From the NCBI GenBank assembly GCA_002633005.1, contig NMRA01000239.1:124001-188000 (forward strand): 64,000 nt of DNA. Direction: 5' to 3'. This DNA is from Phoronis australis. Lineage: Eukaryota > Animalia > Phoronida. Below the pieces are notes generated by a model. It ran no database searches. It saw nothing but the letters and a program-made list of their open reading frames with translations, and was not told where the DNA came from. The position numbers and the translations under genes were made by a program. Below, in pieces: positions 4,010 to 64,000 of the stretch (its first letter is position 1; every line of letters starts with the position of its first letter).

Positions 4010-4289
4010 ATAGTTTAAACCATTTAACAATAAATATTGAGGTTCATCTCAAGCAATAACGAAATCTTTCTAAATAGAAAAATTCCTTGATGGCTAATAT
4101 ATATTTTAAGATAGCGTGTGTGAACATATGTCTACAACAGCAAAGCCTAAAACCGGTTTAGGTGTGTATTCACACGACACATGAACAGTTTTACTAAGTT
4201 TTGAGCGGCACTTCTAAATACACTTAAGAGAGATCAACCCCAGGGAATTTTCCGGGTTTAGAAACTTGCATGTTTACTATTTTGTTCTT

Positions 4290-4548
4290 CACCCGGGTGA
4301 AAATCATTTCCACACGGGCGGAAATAATTTCCATCTAGGTTGTAATTATTTCAACCTGGTGAAAATAATTTCTACCTATGTTGAAACAATTTCCACCTGG
4401 ATGAAAATAATTTCCACCTGGGTGAAAATAATTTCCACCTGGGTTGAAATTATTTCCACCTGGGTGAAAATAATTTCCACCCGGGTGAAAATAATTTCGA
4501 CCTGGGTGAAAATAATTTCCACCCGGGTAAAAATAATTTCCACCTAAG
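4290..4548. repeat. 21-bp minisatellite (TTTCCACCTGGGTGAAAATAA)n, ~12 copies
   Basis: Visible tandem array; produces the KIISTWV 7-aa repeat ORF. Confidence 0.92.
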
Positions 4549-4959
4549 TAAAAAATAAAACATAAAAAATAATTAAATTTAAATAGTTATGATATTTTTG
4601 GGCCACTGCAGTTTTTGAATTTATTTCTAATTCAAATTTCATTTTTTTACGACGTACAATTGATTTATAAAGAAAATTCTTACTAAACCACAGTAACTCC
4701 TGAAAACTGTTTTATTTTTCAAAGTAATACGATGTTCGTTTTGCAAAATTTCTCTACCTAACTAATTAGCATCAGGCCCAGGGGCAAAAATGTCCAGTCA
4801 CAAGCAAAAAAAACTAAATTTATACTTTCTCTATTGAGTCAGTCTTCTGTACGCCCAAAGTATTAACAATTGCCAGTTTGATATCTACGCCATAGGCTTA
4901 CAGCTGTAGGTCTATTTAGAAAAAAGCATTGTTCGCCTAAAACAAGATGTGTGTGTTAC

Positions 4960-5900: not shown

Positions 5901-6025
5901 ATGACGGATTCTAAAGTAATGCATTCAGACTCATACAAAGGATGGCTTTACAAATGGACAAACTATATCAAAGGTTACCAGAAACGGTGGTTCGTTTTGC
6001 AAAATGGTTTACTGTCGTACTACAG
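5901..6025 (+). CDS. OSBP: OSBP exon 1 (start, N-terminal half of PH domain)
   Basis: [41 protein letters not shown](R); donor GTATGC at 6026, phase 2. Confidence 0.93.
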
Positions 6026-9000
6026 GTATGCTAAATCACTAAACAACATCCACTTCCGAGTTCCGATTTTCACGTCACAGTCACAAGTCACAGACGTCGG
6101 CCAAAACCTTCACTTCGTCTTCTATCGCTCTTATGATTGCTAATTTAGTGTTAGTTATATTTTATCTGAATTTTCTGTGATTGTAAAACGAATGTGAATA
6201 TCAGCCACCAGTTCTAGTAGTACCTAACACTGACACTGGAGTTGAACTTGGGACTGGGCGGCACAGTGACCACCGTCTCTAACCGGCTAGAGATGGTTTA
6301 GCTCCTATAGGAGTTTCATATGCCAGAAGCTTTTCAGTAAATTATGCCTCACACTGACTAAAACATCAAAGTCATATTGTTATTAATACCTTTTACACAT
6401 AGAGGGACATTTTAGGAGGCCACCAATGTATTTAATTCCTTCCAACTCGAAGAAATACTCCCGTTAGCGTTATCAAACCTTTTCTTTGAGCAGTCCTTTG
6501 TGTTCAGGTCCTAATATCGGAAACTAGCCATTTTTAACACTGTGTAGTAATAGCCGAGATCACCCGACTCGGGGATCGAACCTGCGACCCCCATAAAACC
6601 GGCAAGCGTGCTAACCATTCAGCTAATAGGCAATTGCCCGTTAGCGAGTAGCTAACAGAGGCTCATATAATTCACCGGAAGCACATCTACAACAACTGCG
6701 CACGGCAAGTGGTATGACGATATATCCCCTGGCGTGCACAGTGTAATGTTGTATATGTGCTTCTGGTGAATCATATGAGCCTCTTGTTAGCTACTTGCTA
6801 ACGGGCAATTGCCTATTAGCTGAATGGTTAGCACACTTGCCAGTTTTATGGGGGTCGCTGGTTCGATTCCGGATCAGGTAATCTCGGCTATTACTTACTA
6901 CAAATGGCGTAGTCGGCAAACGGATGATCTACCGATGAAGCACTGCCAACTAGTACCCACGGACCTCAGGATAGCGCGCATGAAAAGTTCCAGGAGTCGA
7001 GGAACTGTATGACGGACAACCTTGTGGTCACCTGTGTTGTGGTGGTAAATGTACCAAGGGAACGTTGATGATCTGTATGCGAGACATCCTGGTGGCTTGC
7101 CTGTTCTGTAAGAAAGGGGGGAATGTTGTGGATGTGCTTCCGGTGAATCATATGAGCCTCTGTTAGCTAGTGGCAGATCCAGGATACCATGAGGGGGGCC
7201 TTCTGGGAATTTGGCAAAGCGCGAGTGTATCTGCACAGGCACCCGAAAGTGGCGGGGGTCGGGGCTGTGAACTTCTGGTCTGAAAATCTTTCAGTGGACT
7301 AAAAAACTAAAAAAAAGGAAAAATGGGAACACGATTCCGCCGCCATCTAGGGTCTGAGCCCCCCCCCTCATCTGCTACCGGCCGTAGTTGCTGAACTCAA
7401 TATCCTCTCGCTTCTTCGTTTTGCTTGTGGCAGCCAAGGGGGTGGGTACCGAGTCCCTTGCCCCCTCCCTAAATCCGCCTATGTTAGCTACTCACTAACG
7501 AGCAATTGCCTATTAGCTGAATGGTTAGGACGCCTGCCAGTTCTATGGGGGTTGCTGCTTCGATTCCCGGGTTGGGTAATCTCGGCTATTACTACAGTAA
7601 AAAGGGCCAGTTACCGATTTTGGGTACTGAGCAAGGGACGATAATAGGAGAATTTCTTCAAGTTGGAAGGAATCAAAAACATTGATGGCCTCCTCAGGTG
7701 TCCCTCTATACGCAAAAAGTATTTATAACAATGTGACTTTGATAATGTTTTAGTCAGTGTGAGGCTTAATTCGCCGAAAAGGTTCCTGTGAATGAAGGCC
7801 CTATAGGAGCTACACCATCTCTAGTTGGTTAGAGACGATGGTCACTGTCTAGGGCAGCACTATCAAGTCTCTCGTTTGTGTAGACATTGACCACTGTCTA
7901 TCGTCTGTGCTATTGTCTTTCCGCTTGGCTGGCAGATAGGTGACCTCCCATAACCATCTCTTGTGTTTTTCTGTTTGATCTTGCGAACATTCACTGTGTG
8001 GTGAGTCTGGTTAGGACACCTGGCATTGAAGCAAAAGGTGCTGGGTTCGAAACTTGGATTAGGCGATTTTTTACTATATTGGCGTGCCATGTTGGGCGCC
8101 ATTTGTTGCCTGTTCACTCATGCGACTGACTAGCAGCAACAATGACTATATCAGTCATAGTAATAATATAAATATGTTGAAGGTATAACAGCACAATGGT
8201 GGATCTTTGGGGGGGGGGTTGTGTTCAGAGGGTTTAAATCCCCCATGTTGGGACAGGATCAAAAATAAAAAATATTTAAAATGTTGCCAGCAAAACGAAA
8301 AGCCAGCATAAGTAATCCCCAACTAAACCACCTCAAAAAAATTGAGTGGGTTTCACCCTGAAAATATAATTTCTTTGCATTTTGATTTGTTGTAATCATG
8401 AAAAGCAAGGCATTTTGAGTGTTGGTGACTCATGGGCAAGTGTACGCGCGCTTCTGTCGACACCTCTGAAGTAGCCAAGCACTCTAGATGGATCCACCGC
8501 GGAAAAAAATAAATATCTATAGCTGATATTTTTAGGCAGCTAGCGTCTTTACTCTAAGATATGTTTTGACATGATTAGGGAAAATACTGTGGTACCGCAA
8601 CTCTGCTATTGAGGGAAACCAAAGTGCAATGTTTTTGCCTCACCTGTCATGCATTGTCATGCTGTTATACTCCTCACATTTGTAATATGAATTTGATTGG
8701 TGTGTAAATAAGTTGTCTTGCGCAATAATCATATAGTGTACATGTAATCATGTAATGTGTTTATTTTAAAAAGTGATCGTTTTCCGAAAAATCGCTTGGC
8801 CCTTTGTAAGGACTATTGTGGCGAGCGCTGTGGATTGGTCACAAGTCCGTTTCATTATACACCTTAATAATTTAGGCCTATACCAGGCATGAACCGGGGA
8901 GGGGGGAGTGGGGAAGGATCTCGCGAGGTGATTGCATTCGCAAACAGGGTACAAAAATTGCAAGCAGACTGTAGTTTCTCAGAAAAGTCTTGAGGGACTC

Positions 9001-12000
9001 ACGTGGTGTTCAATATGCTTCCTAAGGAGTGCTGGTCCAGACCTCAACACTGACAGTCTTCCTACCTGCAAAATAAGCTGACACGAATAATTTAAGATGA
9101 GAAATTTCTTTTTTAATTATTCCAAATTTGTTGTTTCACCCATCTGCACTAAATGTCTCCACACCTATGTGGTGAGACATCATTGTGAAATTTGATGTCG
9201 TACTATTATTTAATCACATAATTACACAAACTCAATGCAAAATCAACATTTTTCAAATTAAGTAGTCAGTTATTTGAAATGGAAAATGATATTCACACTT
9301 TTTGAGTCAGTATACAGGTGCCTGAGCCGTGTTCATAACTGAGGAACTGTGTTTGTATGTGCATGAGACATGTTGGGTAGCCTGCTATTGGTTTTATATG
9401 CGTGTTACCTTATTTGTACGTGTCGTGCACATTGTAGCGTAGTGGTACAGTATGTGAACACAAGCTGATGTAGATAACGATTTGATCGGCCTTACTGGTT
9501 ACTGTTTGAAAGAGTGATGTTAAGTACTACATTGTTGCATGGTGGCATATATATTTACATGTTTTCTGATAGCACCTTTTATTTCTGATGAACTCAGTTC
9601 AAATGTGCAATTTCTTTGTTTTGATGTTTACCCATTGGTTTCCAGGAGCCAGGCTGAGATGGCGCACTCCTGCCGCGGCACCATCAACCTGGCGAAAGCT
9701 TTTATTCACACCGAGGACTCGTGCACGTTTGTCATTTCTAATGGAGACACAACAATATTTCATCTGAAGGCCAGCTCTGAGGTCGAGCGTCAAAGATGGG
9801 TGACAGCGTTGGAACTTGCTAAGTCAAAAGCAGTCAAGATGCTGGAGTCTGGTACGTGCTCTCCTAAAAGTGAACTGCTATGTTTTTGCCATCATGAAAA
9901 GCTGAGTTTTTCATTAAAAATTCTTCAAAAAGGAGACATTGAAAAATGCTTTGCTCAAAGCTGGAGCGTGTACTAAAATTTTAGAAATAGGCAATACTGA
10001 CCATCCCAAATTCAAGAATCACCAGAAAGCCGGCAAAGTTAATCGTGTCCAAAATTCTGGACTTAATATCTTACGATACAGGATTCACATGTTTTACTGT
10101 TAACTTTGTAACATCTCACTAGTCAGGAACATCCCCGACTTTATCCATTAGTGATTTTGTACTGCGATTATAAACCAAAGCAATCATGTTAACAGGTAAA
10201 ATACCCTTCGAGGAACCCAACAAATTGAACAGCTATGTAGATGTGTCTGCTATCCATTGATTAAAAAAAATAATTGAGGGGATCAGATACACGTTGTACC
10301 AGATGTGCGCAGACTGGGCATGTGGGCCCATTGCACTGTTCACCTAGAACCATTTAATATATAGTTGAAACCAAGCTGAGGAGCTGGAAATCTGGCTCCA
10401 GGGTTTTAGCTGTGGGACCCAGTGGGACTCGAACCCGCAACCCCCAGTAAAGAAAGCAGGCACCTATCATCTTCTGTTTTAACCACAACTGGTTTTTTGA
10501 CATATTTTTCTCNCGCATTTTGAGTGTTGGTGACTCATCGGCAAGTGTACGCGCGCTTCTGTCGACACCTCTGAAGTAGCCAAGCACTCTAGATGGATCC
10601 ACCGCGGAAAAAGTAAATATCTATAGCTGATATTTTTAGACAACTAGCGTCTTCTTTAAGATATGGTTTGACATGATTTGGGAAAATACTGTGGTACCGC
10701 AACTCTGCTATTCAGGGAAACCAAAGTGCAATGTTTTTACTTCACCTCGCGAGGTGATTGCATTCGCAAACAGGGTACAAAACTAAGAAATTGCAAGCAG
10801 GCTGTAGTTTCTCAGAAAAGTCTTGAGGGACTCGCGTGGTGTTCAATATGCTTCCTAAGGAGTGCTGGTCCAGACCTCAACACTGACAGTTTTCCTACCT
10901 GCAAAATAAGCTGACACGAATAATTTAAGATGAGAAATTTCTTTTTTAATTATTCCAAATTTGTTGTTTCACCCATCTACACTAAATGTCTCCACGCCTA
11001 TGTGGTGAGACATCACTGTGAAATTTGATGTCGCACTATTATTTAATCACATAATTACACAAACTAAACGCAAAATCAACATTTTTCAAATTAAGTAGTC
11101 AGTTATTTGAAATGGAAAATGATATTCACACTTTTTGAGTCAGTACACAGGTGCCTGAGCCGTGTTCATAACCGAGGAACTGTGTTTGTATGTGCATGAG
11201 ACATGTTGGCTAGCCTGCTATTGGTTTTATATGCGTGTTACCTTATTTGTACGTGTCGTGCACATTGTAGCGTAGTGGTACAGTATGTGAACACAAGCTG
11301 ATGTAGATAAAGATTTGATCGGCCTTACTGGTTACTGTTTGAAAGAGTGATGTTAAGTACTACATTGTTGCATGGTAGCATATATATTTACATGTTTTCT
11401 GATAGCACCTTTTATTTCTGATGAACTCAGTTCAGATGTGCAATTTCTTTGTTTTGATGTTTACCCATTGGTTTCCAGGAGCCAGGCTGAGATGGCGCAC
11501 TCCTGCCGCGGCACCATCAACCTGGCGAAAGCTTTTATTCACACCGAGGACTCGTGCACGTTTGTCATTTCTAATGGAGACACAACAATATTTCATCTGA
11601 AGGCCAGCTCTGAGGTCGAGCGTCAAAGATGGGTGACAGCGTTGGAACTTGCTAAGTCAAAAGCAGTCAAGATGCTGGAGTCTGGTACGTGCTCTCCTAA
11701 AAGTGAACTGCTATGTTTTTGCCATCATGAAAAGCTGAGTTTTTCCTTAAAAATTCTTCAAAAAGGAGACATTGAAAAATGCTTTGCTCAAAGCTGGAGC
11801 GTGTACTAAAATTTTAGAAATAGGCAATACTGACCATCCCAAATTCAAGAATCACCAGAAAGCTGGCAAAGTTAATCGTGTCCAAAATTCTGGACTTAAT
11901 ATCTTACGATACAGGATTCACATGTTTTACTGTTAACTTTGTAACATCTCACTAGTCAGGAACATCCCCGACTTTATCCATTAGTGATTTTGTACTGCGA

Positions 12001-15000
12001 TTATAAACCAAAGCAATCATGTTAACAGGTAAAATACCCTTCGAGGAACCCAACAAATTGAACAGCTATGTAGATGTGTCTGCTATCCATTGATTAAAAA
12101 AATAATTGAGGGGGTCAGATACACGTTGTACCAGATGTGCGCAGACTGGGCATGTGGGCCCATTGCACTGTTCACCTAGAACCATTTAATATATAGTTGA
12201 AACCAAGCTGAGGAGCTGGAAATCTGACTCCAGGGTTTAGCTGTGGGACCCAGTGGGACTCGAACCCGCGACCGCCAGTAAAGAAAGCAGGCACCTATCA
12301 TCTTCTGTTTTAACCACAACTAGTTTTTTGACATTTTTCTCAGTAATGTAGATTGCCAACTGCCATAAGGTTCTGTGCCGGGTTGCATGAAATGGTCCTA
12401 AATAGGAATTCATCTAAAGTCTCTAAATTTTTTATGTATTTGTGGAGTTGTGATAGCACTGATTGTCTCTTCTTATGCTGTTTTCATTTCATAACTAAGT
12501 CAAATTTCTCTGTGATCCAAAGCGAGAGTGAATTCTACATTGAATTCTTAATATTATTGAAAAAATAAGTAGTAATGATCTTTTCATGCAATGGTCCTAA
12601 TTTAAGGACTAAGTCCTCATTTACTTTTAGAATTAAGGGCTCAATTTTTAATTATATTATCAGAAAATGTCATTATAGTTAAACAGGAGCTCAAATAACA
12701 AAAATAAAATGAAAGAAAAAGATAACATCTGTGAGATATGAACGACACAAATATGCAAAAGATTTAGTGAACTTGGTCAAGTCCCTATTCGGGACCATTT
12801 CATGCAACCGGGCACAGTGCCTCTACAATTTTGGCACACATGTAACTGGCACTGGTAATAACTTTAGTTACTTTTACTCTTATTTTCATGCTTTCGCATA
12901 TAAGTTGCAAGCTTTCTCTTGCAAATGTGATTTGTTTTCAACTCTTCTGAAGCACTTAAATTTGAAATTCCCGTTTTTGTTGCATCCTGCTCATGTTGCT
13001 ATGCATAATGAAATGTTATGGTTTTCATTGTGCCTGTCCTAGATGGAACTCTGCCTTTTTTTCAAAGGTTGAAAAATACATTGCGTGACTCTCCTACTTC
13101 TCAAAATGTCAGCAAGCACGTCCAGCTTTGATACTGCCCCCTTTTGTGATTTTCTTGGTGTCGTCATTGCATATTAAATTGCAATAACACAAGTTTGCCT
13201 TAAGTACAGTAATTAATTGCATAATAATTAGGATATGAGATAGTGCATGGTACAGTTGTAGAAGCAAGACAGGTACTCGACACACCAGCTGCATTGTGAG
13301 TAAATACCTTAAAATGAGAGTGGTGCTGTATTATTTCAGGGCGAGCCTTTTCTCAAAGTAGCATTTTTTGTCGTGCTCATCTGGGACACCGAACGCAGGC
13401 ATTTAAACACGACTTATTTCTTTTGGATTCTTATACAAACTTGTGATTCAAGTGTATGTCAAAGTAGAACATGGTCTTATCCACCGCCAAAGGCAAAAGT
13501 GATATAATAATAATAATAATAATTATAATAGTAAGTGTCATTCCATTTGTCGGTGGATGCAGACAGTAATATTTTGTATAAAGCTCCTACATTTCTGTGG
13601 AGATTTCAATCAAACTTACAAAAAATATGCTCTCAAAGTGCCATAGCGCATATCTACACTCATTAGCAATTCAGTCGCATTTTCTTGAATTTTTGTCCGT
13701 TCTTGATTTCCACCTGTCCACATAGGGAAATGCTCGTCTATGTGCAACTCCTACATTTCTCAGGGGTTTAGACCAAACTTTCAAAATAGTACAGGGATAT
13801 TCCTGGATTGCGCCTTTGCGCCATTAGCACATGAAAAAATAAAAAGGCGCAAATACGTTGCAGCAGTGCCCCCCCCCCCGGGCACATCTTTTGAAACGCA
13901 ACAGTCTTCCATAAATGCAAGATTCAAGTCAACTTAGGTAAAATATGGCTCTGTTCTTATTTCGATTGCCCTTGGTATTTCTGTTTCATATATTGCCACT
14001 TTAATTACACTAAGTCTGCTGGGTACGTCTTTTTGAAAAAAGGCTCAATTTTTTATCACCAGGTGCGCCCAAAGGGCACAGGTTCAAACCTGGTCAGGAA
14101 TGTCCCTGCAGTGTGATGATGAAGTGGTGTAGCTCATATACTTTTAGCATTTTTGCAGTTCTACCGTATTTTTCTGAGTTTTGTCCGTTCTTGATTTTCA
14201 TTCAGCCATGTTGAGTAATGCTCTTGTGTGCGGAATTCCTACATTTATCGGGATTTTGGTCAAACTTTTAAAAAGGCCTGTTTTTAGAATGTCGTAATCC
14301 ATATTATCGAATTTTTCGTATTAAACAGTATTTTCCTGAGTTTTGCCCCGTTCTTGATTGTCACTCATGCGTGTGCGGTAGTGCTATTCAGTGCGCATCC
14401 AAACTGTCAAAAAGTTTGCGCATGAAGTGCCATAGTAGTGTTGTATCATTGGCAATTTGGAGTGGGACTGTATTTTCCTGAAAGCGGCCTGCCTTGCATG
14501 TTGGTTTATGCTTAAAGATTCTCCGTACTACTACTGAACCATCGGCGCGGTATATCAATGTCCGTGACTGTGTTTGGAAACTGAAGAGGGGGTTTAACAT
14601 AGATGAGTATACTTCTGTAAAAATTCAATTTGGGACAAAAATAATTGAAAGGCTCAAAATTTTGCCAAATGCTACATGGTAATAGCTCCGCCATGCAAAC
14701 CATACTAAAGGCAAAATATATATTCTTGAAAATTTATTTTTGTTGAGAAATTTGACAAAATAAAATTACATCTGTTCGCCATATTGTGTCCCAAACTGAA
14801 GAATGAGCGGAGTCAGCTCAGCTGACCATAAGAAGAGCTGATCTGTTGTCATTCTTTGTACTAAGGGGCTGACCTACATGTTTGTTGACATCACAAAGAG
14901 GATTGTTTCAGTATTACATAAACTCAAGATTTACCAAATGTGATTGACCTAAGCCAGACATGAGTGAAATATAGTCATGCTGAGTTTCTGTGCAGGCACT

Positions 15001-27000: not shown

Positions 27001-30000
27001 GCATGTCAGTGGTTGTGCAAATAACAATGTGTCTTAATGGTGTCATCACCCGGCCACGCCCTCCATGGGTGCAGTGGGCTTAATAGATTCACCAGATCTG
27101 ATTGATAGATGCTTTGAGAAATAAGTTGCTCTCTGGTTTTGAAGGAATAACTGAACAGTCAAGTAAGTCATAGCTGTCCACCATTCTTTTAATGGCAAAA
27201 ATAGGGCTTGATTAGTTGGTCGGTATTGTAGGTTTGATCAGACACAAATTCTTTTAGTTTCTGCTCAAGTTAGTTGGTCCAGAATCATTCCAAATGTCTA
27301 GTTCCAAACTGAACTCTCCTGACATAGCAGGTACTTTATTGAGTCAAAAAGCGCGACTTGCTGTGCATCAATAAATGTGCAGTGGTGCGTATTTGTGGAC
27401 AAGTTGAATTAGGCGTGTATTGCTAGTAACATTTATCTCTTGCAGCAGTCACGTCGAGTTCCGACGAAGAAGATTTCCATGATGCAGTAGAGGAACAGCA
27501 AGAAGACTTCGTAGTCACCCTGAAACATACGCTCACAAAAACTCACAAGTAGGTCAAAGTGCAAAGCCTCTTACTGCACTCTTAATGTGATGTTATGGTA
27601 ATTGTCTGGTGCTTATACTTGCTCAATGCTTGCCCATTTTATGTAAAACCTTTGGGGTGGTTTAGTTGCTTGAGATGAAATGCTACGTTGTCAATCAGTT
27701 CACTGTAACACGTAACAACATTATGACACGCATGCACAAAATGCCTTGTGATGTCATTCTGATGCGTTTAAGAAAAAGTGATGCTTGCATTTCTTTGATG
27801 TGTTTGTGATGTGTACGGCAATCATTATGACATCGGTTTCTCTCCACAATAGTTGTCGTTTGCAATAGTTGACATGTCCCTAGGGTTTGACACAACCCCA
27901 TGGGAGGTGCTGTGAGGTACACATTAGCCAGACAGTGAAGTAAAATTGATTAAAAGGGGAAACTTGTAAGAAAATGACCGACCAGTTGTTTTGGCACTTA
28001 ATCACACATCTACCTCCTTCTTTAATGACACTATGTATGTCGCTATCTTGGAATGCAATAACTCAAGAATAAGAAAAAGGATAACACTTGATCCCTTTTT
28101 TGTTCATTATTCCCTATGTTTGCACTGTGATTGGCGACTGTCCTTGGTGGGTCGCACTACTCGATAAAAGTTAATTATTTTTTTGTCAGACAGTGCCTAA
28201 GTGGACAAGTTATTGATGTTACTTTCTGGGGTTATTTTGATAGAAAGCATGGTGTTCACACATTTGTGCGGTGCAGTGTGCTCTTCACTCCATTATTTTG
28301 CCAGAGGTAAAGTTGGATCGAGTGTGGCCAGTGTTGTTTCGATATCAGAACTTGTTGCCGGAAGTAATCACTGTATTTTTTTCAGGCAATGTTTTTTGTA
28401 AAATATTTTTCATTGGTTTACAAATTTGCTGGGATTCTGAGTTCCACTAAATTTCACAGGGTTGATCCTGGGAAAAGACTCTCATGTGGTGACCTTTGTT
28501 TACTCACTTAAAATTTCAAGCCTCAATCAGTGGCACTGTTGCAGCCTATGCGTTGACACTTATGTATTCAGTTAATTAACTGATGTTATCAGTCGTTTAA
28601 AGACTTGCCAATAGGGGCTACAGCAGTTGATGGGATTATCATTTACATGGGGACAGATTGGTGGAAATAGTTCCTGTAAACAGATTTCAATGAAGTTTTG
28701 GGATTCTGAAATTCATGGGAATGCTGCTAGCATTATTTGTGGCCTGGCATTTTCGTAATACACACTGACACGTGGCAGTGCTTAAACTAGATGTTCTTGT
28801 CGAGTTTCCTCATTTTGGTGTCGTCTTTATAATGCCGCAGACGAACTGGGAGCGGCATAAGCACAGTTAGCGTCGAGAGTCTTGGGGCCAACCTGCTTCG
28901 AGCGGAAAACGAGTCCAGCGAGTCCGACTTTGATGACCATCCAACCAACGAGGCATGGGTGATCGCCAACAAAGACAGCATTTCTAATAATGTAAGCAAA
29001 ATGTGTACATTCATTATAGTTGGGCCTTTAATGGCTGTCTTTGCACCAGCTTTCATCTTGATTATTGTGTTCACTGGTTTCCAGTACCGACACTGTATTG
29101 ACTATTAAAGGAAAAACTACTGGTAAAATAGTGTACAAAAAATTATTTGCTTCTTCGATTGATTCCTGAAGTGTTTTGTCTCTTCTTGAAATTAAAGTGA
29201 ATCTTGTAAGACAACCAAATGTGTTAAAGAAACTAGAAACAACTGAAAACTAATGTGTCAAGCTTGCATTGTATTTACATCACAATTTACCCTTTTCATT
29301 ACAACTGGTATTGTTACATCACAATTTACCCTTTTCATTACAACTGGTATTTTTACATCACAATTTACCCTTTTCATTACAACTGGTATTTTTACATCAC
29401 AATTTACCCTTTTCATTACAACTGGTATTTTTACATCACAATTAACCCTTTTCATTACAACTGGTATTTTTATATCACAATTTACAATTTTTAATAAAAC
29501 TGGTATTTTTACATCACAATTTACCCTTTTCATTACAACTGGTATTTTTACATCACAATTAACCCTTTTCATTACAACTGATATTTTTACATCACAATTA
29601 ACCCTTTTCATTACTGGTATTTTTACCACTTTAGAAATGCTGGTACCCACTCCTAATTATGATCTTGTCACTGAATGTGCTCAAGTTACTGTTACCTGCT
29701 TTGATAGGCAAACTGTGCAAACAAGTCTAGGTTATAATATGTCAGTATAAGAAGTAGGATCTGTATTGGACACTCTCTCAGTAAGAAGAGTTCACATTTT
29801 GATCAATATAAATGAGTATATTAGGACATTTTTGTTATGATTTTAAGTTCACGTTGAAATTCATCTAGTTTCTTCGTTTGAGTTATTTTTATTGGCTGGC
29901 ATTGGGTTTGGAATAATCATGTAGTTTTTTTTACAAATTAGAATTTCATAGCGTCATAAAAGGGACCTACAGTTGTCTCCAGTGCTCTTAAGGCTTGTAA

Positions 30001-33000
30001 TTTCTTGAATTTTTAAGCAGTTTGCCAGGGTGTTATTCATAACTCATTAAACAGTACCTGACTGGTCCATGTTTGCCTCCAGGTCGAGATTGGTTTGACT
30101 TGCCAGTTGCTTAAATTGGAAAGTTGGTAGTATTCACTCACAGGAGTCTCTTATTTTGAGTACCAGTTTGTTGCCCATTATTCGGTGGAGGAACTGGTTC
30201 TCAAAATGCAGGACCCCTGCAAGTGACTGTTATCAGACAGTTTAGAATGCTAATCCTTAAACATGAAACACGCCCACCAGATATAATGCTTTCTACCGCT
30301 TTCTGGGCTTAACTCCAATTGTTGTATATCATATTTTTATAATAAACATTGAAAAGTACGTAATACGTGCATTTTCCCAATTTCTGCTACTTAATTGTAT
30401 TGGCTCCTCATGTTGAAGCCAACCTTCCTGGGCTCTCTTTTCGATTTCAGATGCCCGAATACTATGTGCACGGTAAAACTTAGGGTTGTTCCTTTGCAGT
30501 TGTTAGTCAACTTAGTGGGACTGCTACTGCTCGCCTGTTTAGTGCCTCTCGGCTATGCGTACTACATTCTACTGACTGTAGGGGACCTGATCGTAATGCC
30601 AATCACTATGCTGTGCTCCTCAATCTCAGCCATATCGGTACAGTTTAAACTAGCACTAGGTTTTCATATTTCTATTCTGTTCTCATACTAGATTTATTTG
30701 TTAAGAATTTTTGTCTATCTCAGAGTGGAAATTAGCACACAGAATTGCAATGCATGGTGAAAAAAGAATTGAATGCTGTTTATAAGAACACCCATGTAGT
30801 TAGGAAGGGAGGACAAAATTTACAGATGTTATTCATGTTAGGAGAGGACTGTTATTCACCAGTCAGTGTGGTCGTGTCAAATGCCTGTGTGTGATATTGC
30901 CATTCATGTGATATTGCCATACATGTGATATCGCCATACATGTGATATCGCCATTCATGTGATATTGCCATATATGTGATATTGCCATTCATGTAATATT
31001 GCCCTACATGTGATATTGCCATTCACATGATATTGCTATTCATGTGATATTGCCATACATATGATATTGCCATACATATGATGTTGCCATACATTTGATA
31101 TTGCCATACATGTGGTATTGCCATTCATGTGATATCACCCTAATATGATATCACCAGTGTACACTCGCATACTTTAGTCTGTAGTGAATGCATTGATTCT
31201 CACCTACATCAGTTTAGTATGTGTTCATAAGCAAGCAGTATCTGATCGTTGTAAGTTAGTGGTGGGCTGCCATTTTAGTTCTTTTTTATGTTAAAACTAT
31301 TGTTTTGAACAAATTTCATTAATTGCAAGGTATCTAGTGTATGATAAATTTTTTGAAAATATTTCCTTATTACCATTCATTACTAGATTGTTTCCCTTAA
31401 ACTTTGGTACAAATAGATATTTGTGAACATTTCTACCACGGTGACCACTATAAGAACATCTAGGCAAAGGATAGTTATTTACTTAAAACAGTGTATGAAT
31501 ACCCAACTCAGAACCCAGTGACTTTGACGGTGTTACCCTAGTTCGCAACAGTCACGTTAAGTTTAGCATTTTGAAAAAAACACTTACTATTATGATTTAG
31601 GAGCCATGTTTTGCCTGGCCAATTTGCAATGAATTTCATCACAGCTTCAGGGTATCCAAGTGTGATGGTCGTGCTGATTTAGTTTACGTTTTGATCACAA
31701 AAATTTTTAAGTCTAGTCTGCACGCCATCTGTAGGACACATCATGTGACTTAATGAATAGAAGTCCCATGTATGTGATACCCACTGCTAAATCTGGTTAG
31801 ATTTCTCTGTTCGACCAGTGCTCCCGATGACTCAGTGGACTAGAGTTTGTGTCTGCACGGTTTGCAGAACGTCCCGGGTTCGAATCCCAGTGGGGGTAGA
31901 AATCTTTCCAGACTTATGTTATTAGGTCGCGTGATGTGGCCAAAAGGTGACGTGCAGATCAGACTTGAAAATGCTTGTTATCTATATATCCACGCCGGTT
32001 CAAGATTTACATAATTATTAATTTAGTGTATTGATGTTAACATGTACACGTTATAGGGATCCCTTAATGTATTTGGTAGAAGAAGATCACTATCCTTGTC
32101 TGACTTACAACTAGACTCTCTACTGCCCGTGTTTCCCCAGAAGTTGACTTTGCCAAAGCCCATGCAGTCGGGCTTTTTGTGCGTGCCAGGAGTAGGTAGC
32201 CATTTTGTCATTGCTTGCTCATCAGTTGGTTTTAGTTCTGGGTAAATATAACTTTGTGGGCTATGCATATGATGGAATATCTTTTGTTAATTTATTGTAG
32301 CTGTCCATATATTAACATTTGCATATTAGTAGTATTGCCTTTAGTTTTAGTTCTTAAAGATTCATTTCGAGTAATTACTAATAGAATACCTTTCATAACT
32401 ATGTTCAATCCATGTTTAAACGGAATTAGCCACGTCTTCAAAAAACATCTTTCTACGCAGCATATTTCCCCTCAAATGAAAAACCTATTTCCTCATCCCC
32501 CTATAATTTCTTGGAGAAAATGTAAAAATCTAAAAAATTATTTAGTTAAAGCTAATATCGACAATATACACCAAACTGACAAACCTATTGGCAACACACA
32601 ATGTAACAAAACTAGGTGTAAAATGTGTAACTTCATCAACGATAGCACTTTTTTCCAGTCTTCCCAAACCAATGAAAACTTTGAAATAAAACATTATTCT
32701 GATTGCACCACCAACAATATTATTTACCTTATAACTTGTAAAAAATGTTCTATCCAATACGTAGGACAAACTCAACATAATCTACAAACTCGGTTTCGTA
32801 ATCATAGATTTAACATAATACATAAAAACATTTCTGAAACTATAGGTAATCATTTCAATTCCAAAAACCGTAATATTCAAGATCTTTCTGTACAAATAAT
32901 AGAAAAACTCCAACACCCCAGTACCCCTCACAGACTTAAAAGAGAACAATATTGGATAGACAAACTGAATACAAACCTCATGGATTGAACATAAAAACTT

Positions 33001-46500: not shown

Positions 46501-49025
46501 TGACCTCATTTTGCCCATAAACAAACGATATGAAGGCAAGCCCCAAAACCTCCTTGTCTGTGATGTCACTCTTAACAGCTAAATGTTTTAGGTAAATGCA
46601 AAGGTTGAATTGAAAACAGCACAAACTGTTAAAAGAGTATCAAAAGCTAAGCCGTCATCAACACGCACAGTAAAAACGTGAAAAAGTCAAAACTTCACCT
46701 TTAAATGGCAAGGTTGGATTGGCTAAAATGTTATGTGAAACATTCAACAGTCAAGGTGAGTCGGTGATTGCAACTCAAAACATCTGTTCTCAGTTTGATC
46801 TGCCGATTATTTACAGACTCCTGGGACACATTCAGAATTGACTGTGATAACTTACTGTCTTTCACTCACACTGATGGAAGGAATATCTAAATTTACCCGT
46901 TATTCGCTTCAGTTACAAATGTCAATTTAAGTGAACAAGTAGTAACTTACTCATCTGAATGCCTTTTTCTTGACTTTCGTCGCTCCTCCGACATCCTACT
47001 AAACAAACTGACAAATCACAGAAGACCACAGCAACATGGGAAAATCAATGCTTGAAACGGTCTACATTTTTCCAACATTTCAATTATTACAAACAATTGT
47101 TAGTTACTGAGACAATCTCTATAAATTACTTCTACACTTTGATGTGTTCATAATTACTTGGCTAAAGTTTTCCTACCAATTGTGAAGTGGGTTCGTTAGA
47201 CCAAACTTCTGCCTTAAAGTGGAGCATGCATGCTAATTCCCTATCTCTGTGATTGCTTGGCCGAATTAGTTGGAAACAAAACATATAGCGACGATGCGAT
47301 CATGAATTAGGTTGCCAAGTGTTTTTAAGAACATTTTTACCGTGTCCAGTAAGTATCGTGGGGAATAAGACTGCATGATGAAGGCTATGAGAACCCGCGA
47401 GATATGTCATTAGTGCAAAGGTCAATTACTTTCAGATTTATTTGTTTTCACATTTACAATTCGTCAATGCATACAACTGCAATTTGTTTAGCATAGATTA
47501 TGTTCAAATAGCATTGTCGTTTAGTTTCAGCTTCACATTTGCATAGTTTGGAGCATGGAAATACATCTTCAAGTCTTTAGTCACAGACCTTTAGGCTCGC
47601 GCAATAATGGATTGTCAGTTCTTTCTAAGATTAGAAATCCTCTCTACTTCCAGTAAACATCAATTTGAGACTAATTTCTTCAACTGCAAGTGGCAAAAAT
47701 CAAAAGCAAATGTTAATATAAGCTTTAACCATGAATTGCGACAGTCCATTCAGTAGCCATACCAAACTACTGTCAAAGGTTAAAAGTTTATCTGACCCAT
47801 TACACTTTTAAATAAGACAGCCTTGATTACACACAAATGTGTACTAACTTGAGAATGCTTCGATGGAAATATTTGAAGCCAAAGAAAATGGGTTTGGGAA
47901 GGGTAAATTTTTTATTAGGGTCTCTTTGACCCATTGCTCTGCAACAGCCCAAGGTTGTCACAAACTTCATATTCATGGAAGGGAATGGTGCTGCTGAGGT
48001 ACACTTTTAAGGAAGTGGGTGCTCAAGGTGCACAGAGTCGGTAATTTAATAAGATAAAGCTTCGTGTAAACTAAAGCCAAGGTAAGGTAAATGTACCATC
48101 TAGATATAACCAAGGTAAGGTAAATGTACCATCTAGATATAACCAAGGTAAGGTAAATGTACCATCTAGATATAACCAAGGTAAGGTAAATGTACCATCT
48201 AGCTATAACCAAGGTAAGGTAAATGTACCATCTAGATATAACCAAGGTAAGGTAAATGAACCATCTAGATATAACCAAAAATGCACGCTCTCATACCTCA
48301 ATCACTTCTTGCTTACCAGACACCAAGCAAGTTTCTATTGCATCACAAAAAATAGCACTCAAGCCTTACCTGTCCACAGATTTCCCATCAAACTGGACAG
48401 TGTGTCCCATGCACTGTGACCAAGGAAACCTCCCAGGTACACTATGCAACCAACCACTTTTATCAGAAGTATCTGGCTCACGATTACTTGCTTCTGATAC
48501 ACTTTCAGGTTCTTCAATGTTCAGCAAGTCCAATCCACTAAGACGTGAGGCATCTTGTCGACTATTGACCGAGCTGTTTAAAGAGTTTGTCCAAGTATTG
48601 CACATTTGTTGACTAGCTCCAGCAGTGACCTGTTGGCAGCCATTTACTGCGTAAGTGTTCAGTCTTGGCTGAACACTGGTGGGAGTATAACTGACATGGT
48701 ACCCTGGTATAGTGGGCTGCAGGACAGAGCCTGGCATCTGAGGCTGGGTGAATGTGGTTGGTATATGATAGCCTCCCCTGTACAAACTGTTTGCTGAGCT
48801 CATTCTGTGCTGACCAACAAGCAATTGCGTGGACGACGGAATACCAGCTGCGTAAGGGCTAGACGCCGAATTTGTGGGTGTCTGACTGCCCAGTCTGAGC
48901 AAGTCTGGATTAGACATTAGTGTACTGGTAGACTGCAACTGTGGCATGGCGTTGCGTACCATGTGTTCAGTAGTACCAAGTATGAGATCAGGTGTTGATA
49001 GGTGAAGACTACGATCAGAATACAT
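43478..49025 (-). CDS. CCDC117: CCDC117-like protein, ~425 aa, 6 coding exons
   Basis: complement join(49025-48370,46998-46951,46442-46230,45050-44904,44352-44221,43559-43478) = 1278 nt, all introns phase 2 GT-AG. Motifs RKRHSDEE...KLHITEARL, RLVLSQEV...EILPKACIQSWTHPSMQVVLWRPP (cf. CCDC117 RPSMELVLWKP) and acidic C-terminus DDFMDL* (cf. EEMEL). Start codon uncertain. Confidence 0.75.
44221..44352 (-). CDS. CCDC117: CCDC117-like exon carrying the conserved motif
   Basis: WTHPSMQVVLWRPPGSQISEIIEG...; acceptor CCCTAG, donor GTAAGG. Confidence 0.8.
44904..45050 (-). CDS. CCDC117: CCDC117-like exon
   Basis: RLQVDDDEEDANNNEQTMLVNESRLVLSQEVSQHIRTAQEILPKACIQS; donor GTATGC. Confidence 0.78.
46230..46442 (-). 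CDS. CCDC117: CCDC117-like exon
   Basis: EELNYTSKLHITEARLKDLSLHRED...MLEELDS; donor GTAAAT. Confidence 0.72.
46951..46998 (-). CDS. CCDC117: CCDC117-like exon (basic, NLS-like)
   Basis: TTTAG/TAG tandem acceptor; SRMSEERRKSRKRHSD; donor GTAAGT. Confidence 0.7.
48077..48278. repeat. 33-bp minisatellite, 6 copies (CCAAGGTAAGGTAAATGTACCATCTAGATATAA)
   Basis: Directly visible; explains the LVISRWYIYLT repeat ORF. Confidence 0.95.
48370..49025 (-). CDS. CCDC117: CCDC117-like first coding exon (long low-complexity N-terminus)
   Basis: Part of the 271-aa ORF; acceptor TTTTCAG near 49076; first in-frame ATG at 49025; donor GTAAGG. Confidence 0.65.
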
Positions 49026-53100: not shown

Positions 53101-56100
53101 GTAAGTATGGTGCAAGTCATGAAAATTACAACCAGTTGTTATTCAAGTTTTCCAGTTGTTGGAACGCTGTAGTATATTTTAGAAGTGAACTTCTGAAAAA
53201 CATACTTTTTATTAAGCCCATTCACATGACTGTAAAGCCGCTATTTCAACTCTTAAAGCTGCATTTTGTCCCGCTAAAAATGGAAACCAAATTAGGCTTT
53301 TTACTCTTATGAAATCTGTCTTTTCTTCTGTTACCAAGAAGAATATATCGTACAAACCCTCAACAGGTAAAAAAACCTCGTTGGAAGTCATGGATTTTAT
53401 TAGGGGTTCTCAACCCTGAAATTCTAAAACGGGGGCTTCAATTCCTAGATACAATCAACACAAGAGGAGAATTCATCATATTTTTAGGTCGCTAAAAAGT
53501 CAAATGTGTTAACAGCGTACTATTGCCAGAGTTTCTGTTTCAGTCCAACAAATCTCCCTGAACACCCAATCGTTTGGGAAGGTTGGACATTCTAAAGATG
53601 TACAGCTGCGCTTCAATAAGCTTGTCACCAAGGGCAAAGAGCTGGCAGGTCAGGGTTATGTCAGGAAGGCGCTAGAGTACAACAAGAAGGCAATTGCTCT
53701 CGTCTATAATGAAAAATTGGCCAAGAGAATTAAAAAGATGGAGGTGATACATTTTCTTTAAAAAATGTGATGTAATTTCAAAATGTTTGTTTCGAGTTCC
53801 ATGTCATTTATCTGTCATATCGGTTATGTGAATGTATGGCAATGCAGCATTTTAAGATAGAAAAGTGTGTGGGTATTTTCTTGTTCATTTGATGCAAAGT
53901 TTGTTATACATTGTCACATAATCTTAAAACTCATTTCATTTCATATTTAATGTGTTCATTTTTTGCTTCAGGGCATGTGTATGTTGTCTCTGCCACTCTT
54001 TCACACACAAAATATTTACTACTGAGTGACTACATCCCCTATGTAAACTTCAATTTTATATTCCACAAAGCATGTGTCAAGAATGTCTAGCGGTAGGCAC
54101 AACTTAGCAGACTTGAACTTTCATGGCTATAACTTGTACAAGTATTTAGACTTACTTTTCCACGCTTTGCCTTTCATTCAAACTCGTCTCTCTGACTCCG
54201 ATAGCTTTTCCTGCAAGAGAACGAGAAAACTAATGGGGATGATGAAGATGACAGTGATGGTGACATGTATCACCTGGGTGAGGGGTTCTACCTGTACAAG
54301 GATCTGTTCAACAAGCTGTATCCGCACCAGAAGCAAGGCGTGCTATGGTTCTGGGGCCTCTACCTCAAGAAGAAGGGTGGAATACTGGGGGATGACATGG
54401 GGTAAGTTGACAGGATGTGAGAAGGTTAACAAGCTGTACCCCTGCCAGAGTCAGGTCATGCAATCTGTTGTAGGCTTATACAGGAAGAAGGGTGGTGTAC
54501 ATGTGTAGTGAATATGGAGATGGCAAGGGGATTGGAATCAACAAACAATTGTAGGGCATGTCTGGGATTTTATCTAAAGAAAAATGGGAAAATTGGAAGG
54601 GGATTCAGGTATATTGGGGGTCAACATACAGCTGCGCCAACATAAACATGGCGTACTATTATTGCGTGGCCATTACGGTAAAATCTCCAGTTTTGGACAA
54701 AATGATGGCAAAAATCACATTTTATTCACTTTTCAAAGTTGTGAACTCTCACATTTTTCAAAATAATATTGGTGGTAGCTATGGTGCAGACCTTGAACAG
54801 AGCAAAGCATTGTATTTGATGCTACTTATCTTTTATGAAAAAATGAGAAAATAAGATTTCACTTGTCCGTCATATTGCGTCCTGATTGGTGAGATTTTGG
54901 CGTACCGTAGCTCTAGCGTTTTCACATTGGCACAACATTTCGTCGGTCATTTCCTTGGCCATCTTCAGGTGTTATAGCTTTCTTAGGAGAAGGAGCATGG
55001 GTATCTGACACACACATCATGGACACTTGGATTGAATAGATGACTGTCTGGTCTAGGGATTAGAGTGCTGGGATGATGACTGAAAGGTCCCAGGTTCAAA
55101 CCCCTCCGCTAGAAAAAATACATGAAAATACAACCTAAGTGCCTTCCATGAGTATAGGCCTACGCGTGCTCATTTTTCTAAGTATGCAGTAACACCTGAA
55201 GATGGTTGGGAGAGGTGACTGACTGAAATGTCATATCATTAAGTAAAGCAGAAGCTGCTGAAAGCAGAGACCTGTTCGAAGAAAACTGACTTAGCTAACT
55301 TAAAGACAAATCTTGAATTTCTGTCAATTTTAAGACAAAACTTACTAGATTCATCTTAGGTCCATTTCAAGAAAGAGAACTTATTCAGTTTGGTTTAGGT
55401 TTTGTCTTGATTTTGACTAGCTTACCGNATGGAGGTGATACATTTTCTTTAAAAAATGTGATGTAAATTTTAAAATGTTTGTTTCGAGTTCCCTGTCATT
55501 TATCTGTCATATCGGTTATGTGAATGTATGGCAATGCAGCATTTTAAGATAGAAAAGTGTGTGGGTAGTTTCTTGTTCATTTGATGCAAAGTTTGTTATA
55601 CATTGTCACATAATCTTAAAACTCATTTCATTTGATATTTAATGTGTTCATTTTTGCTTCAGGGCATGTGCATGTTGTCTCTGCCACTCTTTCACACATG
55701 AAATATTTATTACTGAGTGACTACACCCCCTATGTAAACTTCAATTTTATATTCCACAAAGCATGTGTCAAGAATGTTCAGGGGTAGGCACAACTTAGCA
55801 GACTTGAACTTTTATGGCTATAACTTGTACAAGTATTTAGACTTACTTTTCCACACTTTGCCTTTCATTCAAACTAGTCTCTCTGACTCCGATAGCTTTT
55901 CCTGCAAGAGAACGAGAAAACTAATGGGGATGATGAAGATGACAGTGACGGTGACATGTATCACCTGGGCGAGGGGTTCTACCTGTACAAGGATCTGTTC
56001 AACAAGCTGTATCCGCACCAGAAGCAAGGCGTGCTATGGTTCTGGGGCCTCTACCTCAAGAAGAAGGGTGGAATACTGGGGGATGACATGGGGTAAGTTG

Positions 56101-62944: not shown

Positions 62945-63545
62945 GTATGTATCTGTTTCTACGAGTGATTTTATGTTGCCACAGTTTGTGCATCTCACCA
63001 CTGGCATAGTAATTGCTTTGCAAGAGATTTTTACAAGTTTTCTTTTTTAAAAGAATTTTTATGTCTGGTAGATGGTCCTGCAATTTTCCTATTGAATATT
63101 TCTTAAAATATGCTGACAAATTTCCTGAAGAATGAAATCTCAAGGTTCTTAAACACAGGACCAACATAGAGTTGTGTGGTGCAACATACCTAGTACATCA
63201 AGCTAATGCACTGCCTCGTTCTGTAACTATGCAGGCCTACGTGGCAATATGCGAATATAATGCTCACGACAGTGTCTTGGCTGAGCTTTTATGTGTTTGT
63301 GTAAACACATTGAAGGAGAGGGAGTGACGTGGTTTATGGTTTTGCTCAAAATTTTTCATGAACTTTTTGTTCAAAGCCAATTGATTTTGATTATGGATGC
63401 GATTCTCACTACAATAGGCACTGTCTCCAACATTGTGACGATTTTTATTTATAACTGTTGATTTTTTCAATGAATATATTAGATTTACCCACAAAATTGA
63501 AATATATGCAAAGTTTTTCATATGTATGACTTTTCTGATCATAAN

Positions 63546-64000
63546 GTCGCTGGCACATATTCCGCTTGTAGGTCACATGTTTCTTAAAGTATACTGGGAC
63601 TTATATGTACAGTTCTAGAAAAGTAAAACACATGCCTTTGGACTTACTACCAGCAATTCTTGGTTACACTGTGTAGATTCTAACAGTTTCAATTAGACTG
63701 GTACTAAACCTTGTTTTGGTATTACTTCTGTCACCCGCTGATGGTATTTCGTCTGAGTTATAAAAGCATTATTTAACTAAGACACTTGTTCACTGTGTCA
63801 TAAAGGAGACCCCGTGCTTCTCTGTTGTTGGTCTTTCAATTGTTGCATAACTTGCCTAATGAATTAGTTACACTTGCCAATGTTGCATATTTAAGGATTT
63901 TTCAAAATTGCTCCAACTGAGCATTTTTGTCTTAAGATCTCAGTGAACACGCGGTAATTAATCTGTGAAAATGCTAAAACCAGGTTTAGCATCAAAGTTC
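63546..64000 (+). repeat. Near-identical copy of 60521-60966 after a single n (third haplotype-like duplication)
   Basis: n at 63545; GTCGCTGGCACATATT... matches 60521 onward with SNPs and a short indel. Confidence 0.9.

What the first reader, a model, noticed from the sequence alone, without database searches (positions are those of the whole stretch)
6747..7596. Miniature LTR retrotransposon whose LTRs carry a tRNA-like RNA polymerase III promoter
Seen in sequence: two ~155-bp TG...CA LTRs, a 14-nt PBS (TGGCGTAGTCGGCA), a purine tract directly before the 3' LTR, a 4-bp TSD (GTAA), and only ~220 bp of non-coding interior. Each LTR contains a tRNA-like segment (6811-6879: TAGCTGAATGGTTAG ... 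GGTTCGATTCC). Established knowledge: this PBS is the complement of the tRNA-Ser 3' end, and 4-bp TSDs are typical of animal Gypsy-type integrases. Small-RNA-bearing TRIMs are rare (plant Cassandra carries 5S). As I recall, a group named Helenus has tRNA-like LTRs and 4-bp TSDs in animals; this should be verified. Inference: a SINE/LTR hybrid, transcribed by Pol III and mobilised in trans by a Gypsy element. It is invisible in the ORF track and would easily be mis-annotated as three SINEs.
Basis: partly seen in the sequence, partly recalled or inferred. Interest (0 to 1): 0.82.

Follow-up and report, generated by a model that had tools for sequence, protein, structure and literature searches.

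The report
Helenus mini-retrotransposon with conserved palindrome
This is a real but broken copy of an abundant, gene-less jumping element whose terminal repeats carry tRNA-type promoter boxes, a kind described in 2024; it likely borrows a Gypsy element's enzymes, and a short self-pairing sequence it shares with fish and shellfish relatives may help its RNA pair up for packaging.

Summary
The element is real: TG...CA LTRs, an exact 14-nt tRNA-Ser(AGA) primer site, a 14-purine tract, a 4-bp target duplication and A/B boxes 32 nt apart. It meets Kojima's 2024 definition of Helenus (TRIMp3), so the kind is known; this scan also met Helenus-like elements in other genomes. The 3' LTR is split by a 313-bp DNA-transposon-like insert. 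A solo LTR with its own 4-bp duplication lies head-to-head 52 bp upstream. Both sit inside a palindromic MITE in an OSBP intron. Sequencing runs show a high-copy family with sharp LTR ends and two more probable 4-bp duplications. Gypsy elements elsewhere use the same primer site. Pol III transcription is not shown. New details: this primer site is absent from the published set, and the host is a lophotrochozoan nearest Lingula in my sample. A hairpin plus 10-nt palindrome just before the A box is, by eye, also present with changed but still self-pairing letters in 33 of 57 lophotrochozoan and 17 of 18 vertebrate published LTRs; the paper's text does not mention it. It is a candidate RNA dimerisation signal and hints at one shared origin.

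The parts
6747..6902 (+). 5' LTR of the TRIM (TG...CA); has one extra T at 6784 and a 4-nt duplication at 6891-6894 that most other copies lack
6786..6802 (+). short hairpin-forming inverted repeat in the LTR; its 3' arm can instead pair with the start of the A box
   Evidence: sequence; folds
6804..6813 (+). perfect 10-nt palindrome GGCAATTGCC, 3 nt before the A box; candidate RNA dimerisation signal (inferred)
6817..6827 (+). A box of a tRNA-type Pol III promoter
   Evidence: no listed variant at 30% or more inside it (6 rows were not shown)
6844..6847 (+). T4 run between the boxes, the only T4 in the LTR or interior; candidate leaky Pol III terminator (inferred)
   Evidence: other copies have T at the matching 3' LTR site 7543
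6860..6869 (+). B box
6905..6918 (+). primer-binding site, 14 of 14 complementary to the 3' end of tRNA-Ser(AGA type)
6903..7123 (+). 221-nt non-coding interior; no long ORF, no unusual fold (z +0.9)
7110..7123 (+). polypurine tract (14 purines) abutting the 3' LTR
7124..7596 (+). 3' LTR in two pieces (7124-7168 and 7482-7596); B box, T4 and palindrome each carry one change
7169..7481 (.). 313-bp secondary insert with imperfect ~14-bp terminal inverted repeats and a 7-9-bp target duplication (8-bp reading TGTTAGCT); hAT-like MITE (class inferred); holds a T4 at 7419-7422
   Evidence: other copies are uninterrupted here (joint 7160 to 6785 in 15 contigs and 22-37 reads per RNA run)
6743..6746 (+). 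left TSD GTAA (right copy at 7597-7600)
6543..6694 (-). solo LTR of the same family (92% to the 5' LTR), intact boxes and palindrome, own TSD ACTG (6539-6542 and 6695-6698), head-to-head with the full element
6264..7851 (.). outer high-copy palindromic MITE; long inverted arms (207 identities, 41 mismatches, 34 gaps); 8-bp TSD with one mismatch (6256-6263 and 7852-7859); both TRIM insertions lie at its centre

Best explanation
This is an old, interrupted copy of a high-copy, non-coding LTR retrotransposon of the Helenus kind, likely transcribed by RNA polymerase III from the tRNA-type boxes in its LTR and likely copied and inserted by the proteins of a host Gypsy element. Shown: the anatomy, the family's abundance, the 4-bp target duplications and the primer match. 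Inferred cycle: TFIIIC binds the A/B boxes of the 5' LTR, and Pol III starts about 7-14 nt before the A box, at or within the palindrome. It sometimes reads through the T4 between the boxes and stops at the same T4 in the 3' LTR. That would give an RNA of about 410-417 nt with a terminal repeat of about 38-45 nt, the layout reported for Cassandra. A Gypsy Gag/Pol would package it, tRNA-Ser would prime the minus strand, the purine tract the plus strand, and the integrase would leave a 4-bp duplication. LTR-LTR recombination leaves solo LTRs. This copy is likely dead: the insert in its 3' LTR holds a T4 upstream of the terminal repeat.
For: Anatomy. Family: summed contig depth in run X1 is 53-60 on the unique left flank, about 8,000-12,000 over the interior and 255,000-280,000 over the A-box region; the tool warns this is no copy number. 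Sharp LTR ends with unrelated flanks: 46 contigs at 6694 in X1, 27 and 32 at 6543 in X2 and X3, agreement 0.37-0.38; 45 contigs at 7124, agreement 0.35. TSDs are 4 bp at both window insertions and at two further loci read from majority loose ends (GAAG in X6 and X7, GCCC in X8; pairing the two ends is my inference). Contigs join the LTR to the PBS. Other copies mostly carry G at the B-box site where this 3' LTR has C (5,769 of 6,091 depth). Same PBS in autonomous elements: 4 of 4 long ORFs scanned have RT-RNaseH-integrase order, two with a protease hit ahead. Of 5 complete LTR pairs, 3 have exact 4-bp TSDs, 1 has one mismatch and 1 is unresolved. Definition and Gypsy link: PMC10886601.
Against: No autonomous partner was found in this genome: none is held, and Gypsy Pol gave no tblastn hit in the window. 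The interior has no similarity beyond the PBS to the 48 metagenome loci. There is no T4 after the B box, whereas 11 of 14 published bivalve, brachiopod and nemertean LTRs that I read by eye have one, so the 3' end of the RNA is a guess that needs a leaky terminator. Kojima also states that Helenus promoters are not experimentally validated.
Confidence: 0.8

Rival explanations
1. A Gypsy-mobilised TRIM transcribed by Pol II; the tRNA-like segment is a passive SINE or tRNA relic kept for RNA structure, not as a promoter.
For: No terminator after the B box, and a T4 between the boxes that would cut many Pol III transcripts short.
Against: The A box, B box and their 32-nt spacing are kept in the family majority while the cloverleaf is lost. 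The same pattern holds across Helenus (PMC10886601).
Confidence: 0.15
2. Three tRNA-derived SINE copies that by chance flank a PBS-like and a purine-rich sequence.
For: The tRNA-like core has the highest depth of the stretch, as a SINE head might.
Against: TG...CA ends, an exact 14-nt PBS 2 nt behind the LTR, a purine tract, 4-bp TSDs, a repeated interior, contigs joining LTR to PBS, and no A-rich or simple-repeat tail.
Confidence: 0.02
3. About the neighbouring solo LTR only: it is not a separate integration but was copied from the full element by arm-to-arm repair inside the palindromic MITE.
For: The two copies sit in mirror positions of the MITE arms, offset by 4 bp and in mirror orientation.
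Against: The solo LTR has its own perfect TSD (ACTG), different from the mirror image of GTAA. It lacks the insert of the 3' LTR and both indels of the 5' LTR, and is no closer to them (92%, 90%) than they are to each other (90%).
Confidence: 0.1

Closest known systems
Helenus (TRIMp3), Kojima 2024, PMC10886601 (read: main text parts 1-5 of 6; supplement parts 1, 5, 6, 7, 9, 10, 11 of 11, plus two term searches of the whole file; figures not visible)
   Same: Under 1 kb, non-coding, two LTRs with A/B boxes, PBS, PPT, 4-bp TSD as in animal families, many solo LTRs. LTR of ~152 and interior of 221 nt are close to the mytilid Ser-primed families (141-156 and 226-268). It shares the hairpin + palindrome + A box layout with many bivalve, nemertean and fish families (by eye).
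   Different: New family: four motifs from it had 0 hits in the supplement (a line break could hide a mid-sequence motif but not the PBS, which starts a record). Its PBS (tRNA-Ser AGA type) differs from the two Ser-type PBSs in Fig. S2. Its only T4 lies between the boxes. The host is not Lingula itself (OSBP exons about 46-93% identical) and falls outside the mollusc group in the tree.
Cassandra (plant TRIM with a 5S promoter; as summarised in PMC10886601; passages of PMC7215508 and PMC10853983; the 2008 paper is not held)
   Same: Pol III promoter inside the LTR; transcript reported to start in the 5' LTR and end in the matching part of the 3' LTR, which is the layout inferred here.
   Different: 5S-derived rather than tRNA-derived, methionine PBS, plants, and transcription demonstrated.
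Animal Ty3/Gypsy elements with a tRNA-Ser PBS (loci L009, L010, L013, L017, L025, L027, L042, L043)
   Same: Same PBS start, LTRs ending in TACA, 4-bp TSDs where resolved.
   Different: Coding or formerly coding, 18-nt PBS match, no A/B box pair in the LTR or upstream 200 nt in any of the 48 loci, other organisms, no sequence similarity beyond the PBS.
Ty1 PAL1/PAL2 palindromes (PMC6844567, abstract only)
   Same: Self-complementary sequences near the RNA 5' end, shown there to be needed for dimer formation and mobility; a functional analogue for the palindrome here.
   Different: Yeast Copia element, Pol II transcript, two palindromes; no homology is claimed.

Membership tests
TRIM | Under 1 kb, two LTRs, no coding capacity | tested here: met
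   About 530 bp without the insert; no long ORF in the interior
TRIM | PBS after the 5' LTR and PPT before the 3' LTR | tested here: met
   6905-6918 and 7110-7123
TRIM | Repeated family with TSDs | tested here: met
   Depth and loose ends; 2 TSDs read directly, 2 inferred from reads
Helenus | [quoted passage not shown] | tested here: met
   5' LTR and solo LTR intact; 3' LTR has one change in box B; majority of other copies intact
Helenus | 4-bp TSD in animal families | tested here: met
   4 of 4 loci seen; no genome-wide table was possible
Helenus | Not a functional tRNA gene, and the tRNA-like part is not the primer | tested here: met
   No ARAGORN or Rfam tRNA call and no cloverleaf fold; PBS matches a cellular tRNA end exactly
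Helenus | PBS shared with an autonomous Gypsy of the same genome | tested here: inconclusive
   Shared with Gypsy elements of other genomes; host genome not held
TRIMp3 | Transcribed by Pol III | not testable with these tools
   RNA-seq of unspecified selection cannot separate Pol III unit RNA from host transcripts
SINE2 | tRNA head, LINE-like or simple-repeat tail, variable TSD, no LTR pair | tested here: not met
Retrozyme / ribozyme-bearing TRIM | Self-cleaving ribozyme in the LTR | tested here: not met
   No Rfam ribozyme match at E<=5 in 6000-8400; crude recalled core patterns found nothing in LTRs or interior. A very divergent ribozyme is not excluded.

The most novel reading that the evidence does not exclude
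A large part of animal Helenus is one ancient lineage, not several independent SINE captures. Its LTR replaces the tRNA acceptor strand with a family-specific 10-12-nt palindrome at the Pol III start, kept self-complementary (often by G-U pairs) across bivalves, nemerteans, this host, coelacanth, sturgeon and carp-like fishes. The palindrome is the RNA dimerisation and packaging signal by which these mini-elements enter Gypsy particles. A bolder add-on: the helper integrase prefers DNA just upstream of an existing copy's Pol III promoter, which would explain the head-to-head pair.
Probability: 0.33. Interest if true: 0.68.

Novelty: new member of a known kind. Interest (0 to 1): 0.4.

Why it matters
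As a family record it is modest: one more Helenus, with a primer site not in the published set and perhaps a new host group. Such LTRs inflate SINE and tRNA-gene counts and ride in host transcripts. The by-product matters more. Kojima's paper says it is not known how a TRIM's dependence on its helper is maintained, since the LTRs are not similar. A short self-pairing motif that changes letters but keeps its pairing across phyla is a concrete, mutable candidate for that signal. It also questions the paper's separate origins for molluscan and fish Helenus.

Tried and rejected
No host genome is held, so no genome-wide copy or TSD table. Exact LTR 21-23-mers gave 0 hits in viral, metagenome and GTDB contigs. 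The LTR-end + PBS pattern gave 8 viral loci: L004, checked for ORFs, is a phage-like chance match; L002 has a 90-bp upstream repeat that I did not follow up; the other six showed no LTR pair. It gave 48 metagenome loci, many of them chance matches; none has an A/B box pair. RNA: no RNA holder was listed by the index. Raw reads of three RNA runs (18-19% of each read, library selection unspecified) gave 523-562 reads each. 68-79% run on into unlike sequence, no pile-up of starts or ends was found, and depth shows no clear step at the predicted start. LTR reads lean to first-mate-plus; reads just after the PBS lean the other way 2-3-fold in X6 and X8 but not in X7. I count this neither for nor against Pol III. 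Self-priming is rejected: the PBS is an exact tRNA complement. Ribozyme: not found. Order of the two insertions: unresolved. The solo LTR has the majority letter at 5 of 6 sites where the 5' LTR departs, but about five minority letters of its own. Pol III-gene targeting of the Ty3 type is not supported by distance: the sites lie about 110 bp from the neighbour's predicted start, against 1-33 bp for the Gypsy-type elements in Table 1 of PMC5911963 (passages); flanks of other copies are unrelated to one another. Host taxon: searches were uninformative. The tree is the quick one, without bootstrap, from 36 of the 122 stored relatives (P0001 and P0004-P0123 plus one cluster member), and has no nemertean, phoronid or bryozoan. 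Paper searches with nothing relevant: (only Kojima). Earlier scan notes: no look-alike sequence, none relevant in this genome, none on the palindrome.

Full report
1. What is there. The locus lies between OSBP exons at 5901-6026 and 9644-9853, so in an intron, in the gene's sense. It is a nest of four insertions. The outermost is a palindromic MITE, 6264-7851, with long inverted arms and an 8-bp target duplication with one mismatch. At its centre are two members of one LTR family, whose target duplications are 44 bp apart. One is a solo LTR on the minus strand (6543-6694, TSD ACTG). The other is the full element (6747-7596, TSD GTAA): 5' LTR 6747-6902, PBS 6905-6918, interior to 7123 ending in 14 purines, and 3' LTR 7124-7596. 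The 3' LTR is split by a 313-bp insert with imperfect terminal inverted repeats and a 7-9-bp duplication. The hAT-like label for both MITEs is inferred from 8-bp duplications and recalled end motifs, not from a database. The two LTRs of the full element are 90.1% identical, so the copy is old.

2. Is it more than chance? The PBS occurs once in 64 kb even with two mismatches allowed (chance mean 0.10) and sits 2 nt behind the LTR end. It equals the first 14 nt of the antisense probe for human tRNA-Ser(AGA) (PMC13478228, passage) and of a tRNA-Ser template (PMC3299991, passage). The host's own tRNA was not available. Two random 4-mers match with probability 0.0052, and both window insertions have a perfect one.

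3. The family. Four DNA runs (one sample, possibly the source of the window) were laid at 80% likeness. Summed depth in X1 is 53-60 on the unique left flank and about 8,000-12,000 over the interior. In one search it is 255,000-280,000 over the A-box region. The tool warns this is no copy number, so I say only: roughly hundreds of interiors and thousands of LTRs. Both LTR ends are sharp, with dozens of contigs running on into unrelated flanks (agreement 0.35-0.38). Contigs join the LTR to the PBS. Other copies are uninterrupted where this one has the insert (15 contigs; 22-37 reads per RNA run). Single contigs skip each insertion in MITE-like sequence (6542 to 6705; 6735 to 7597). In RNA runs the dominant left and right loose ends give two more 4-bp duplications (GAAG, GCCC), if each pair comes from one locus. 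No listed variant at 30% or more falls in the A box, the B-box core, the T4 or the PBS (6 rows not shown). Two variants (6802, 6806) near or in the palindrome reach that share only in X8, probably one expressed locus.

4. Promoter and RNA. The A and B boxes fit the motifs Kojima gives for Helenus and lie 32 nt apart. There is no cloverleaf, and ARAGORN and Rfam call nothing. The only T4 in LTR and interior lies between the boxes. From this I infer a Cassandra-like unit RNA of about 410-417 nt (one search gives 417 for a start at 6803), which needs read-through of the first T4. That leakiness is general Pol III knowledge, not tested. The RNA runs show the family mainly as a passenger in host transcripts and do not test Pol III.

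5. Helper. The LTR-end + PBS pattern found 48 metagenome loci. Many are chance matches, but a set continues the tRNA match to 18 nt. The four long ORFs scanned have RT, RNase H and integrase in Gypsy order, two with a protease hit ahead; the two Gag ORFs scanned are weakly PNMA-like. Of 5 complete LTR pairs, 3 have exact 4-bp TSDs, 1 has a mismatch and 1 is unresolved. These come from other organisms: they show that such a helper type exists, not which element serves here.

6. Host. Summed tblastn scores rank Lingula first (1076 bits), then Owenia and Capitella. A quick tree puts the host inside Lophotrochozoa (support 99) as sister to Lingula (94, below the tool's starred level), without nemerteans, phoronids or bryozoans. 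Kojima lists Brachiopoda and Nemertea already; his main text does not mention phoronids, annelids or bryozoans. Whether this is a new phylum for Helenus is open.

7. Known kind. All testable defining features of Helenus are met. The family itself is not in the supplement. A shorter PBS stem occurs 4 times there; the 2 passages shown are fungal interior ends. Searches for later work found only citations in the two papers whose passages I read (PMC13570524, PMC12859917); PMC10946416 was seen in listings only. Repbase and Dfam were not available.

8. The palindrome. The LTR has a hairpin (6786-6802), then a perfect 10-mer GGCAATTGCC (6804-6813), then 3 nt, then the A box; the solo LTR has the same. 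As RNA the 10-mer forms a -16.4 kcal/mol homoduplex against a -2.6 hairpin. In the full LTR it can also be the tip of a longer stem that takes in the start of the A box. I then read the published LTRs by eye with the rule: a 10- or 11-mer, at most one G-U pair, ending 1-4 nt before the A box; 3.3% of window positions pass by chance. It is met in 33 of 57 bivalve, brachiopod and nemertean LTRs and 17 of 18 vertebrate LTRs, with 4 near misses; the one ctenophore LTR starts at its A box. Wasp and fungal LTRs were not counted. The rest mostly keep a GC-rich tRNA acceptor strand. The letters differ between families (for example GAAGTACTTC, GGAGATCTCC, GGGTTAACCC, GAATCGATTC, GGCTGCAGTC, GGGAATTTCCC), while pairing is kept. 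The four central letters are usually self-complementary too, which a plain hairpin loop would not need, and a hairpin usually precedes the run. Caveats: the counts are by eye, families are related and not independent, no covariation statistic was run, and the paper's figures were not visible. The main text has no occurrence of palindrome, hairpin, dimer or inverted. In Ty1, 5' palindromes are needed for RNA dimers and mobility (PMC6844567, abstract). So a dimerisation signal is my preferred reading. A plain stem for 3'-end formation or strand transfer, or a DNA site for a dimeric factor, are the alternatives. The shared layout also suggests common descent of molluscan, nemertean, fish and this Helenus.

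9. The neighbour. Two independent insertions 44 bp apart, head to head, in mirror positions of a palindrome are unlikely for a random pair but are a single case. Open chromatin, cruciform DNA, or attraction to the first copy's Pol III complex could explain it. Known Gypsy-type Pol III targeting acts much closer to the gene, and other copies have unrelated flanks. It stays unexplained.

10. Verdict. Real, mostly as described, and a new member of a kind published in 2024. Interest 0.4, most of it owed to the conserved palindrome as a testable lead.

Noticed in passing
window 6543-6694 and 6747-7596: Two insertions of one family head to head, TSDs 44 bp apart, at mirror sites of a palindromic MITE offset by 4 bp; possible hotspot or attraction to a Pol III promoter.
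   Followed up: partly
window 7996-8075: A further, more decayed tRNA-like segment with box-like motifs and a T7 run, repeated in the genome (depth 1,108 in X1); another SINE or LTR relic.
   Followed up: no
window 8410-10512 and 10515-12341: Tandem duplication (94-98% identical) that repeats the OSBP PH-domain exon (9644-9853 and 11477-11686); real exon duplication or uncollapsed haplotypes.
   Followed up: no
window 53738-55431 and 55429-57130: Tandem duplication (95.6%) containing what looks like a SNF2/ERCC6-like helicase exon (label recalled, not searched).
   Followed up: no
window 32236-32988: ORF ending in a GIY-YIG-like segment, probably a Penelope retroelement fragment (label recalled).
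   Followed up: no
window 4288-4554, 29274-29626, 30890-31151, 48071-48278, 60518-60966 with 63543-64000: A short palindromic tandem repeat, three minisatellites and a dispersed 458-bp repeat pair.
   Followed up: no
L043/L044 675-6611: Two near-identical Gypsy units in tandem sharing an LTR (99.9%), an apparently recent tRNA-Ser-primed element in another organism.
   Followed up: partly
RNA runs X6-X8 on window 6747-6902: A few host transcripts carry what look like solo LTRs of this family and dominate the reads; different loci dominate in X6/X7 and in X8.
   Followed up: partly
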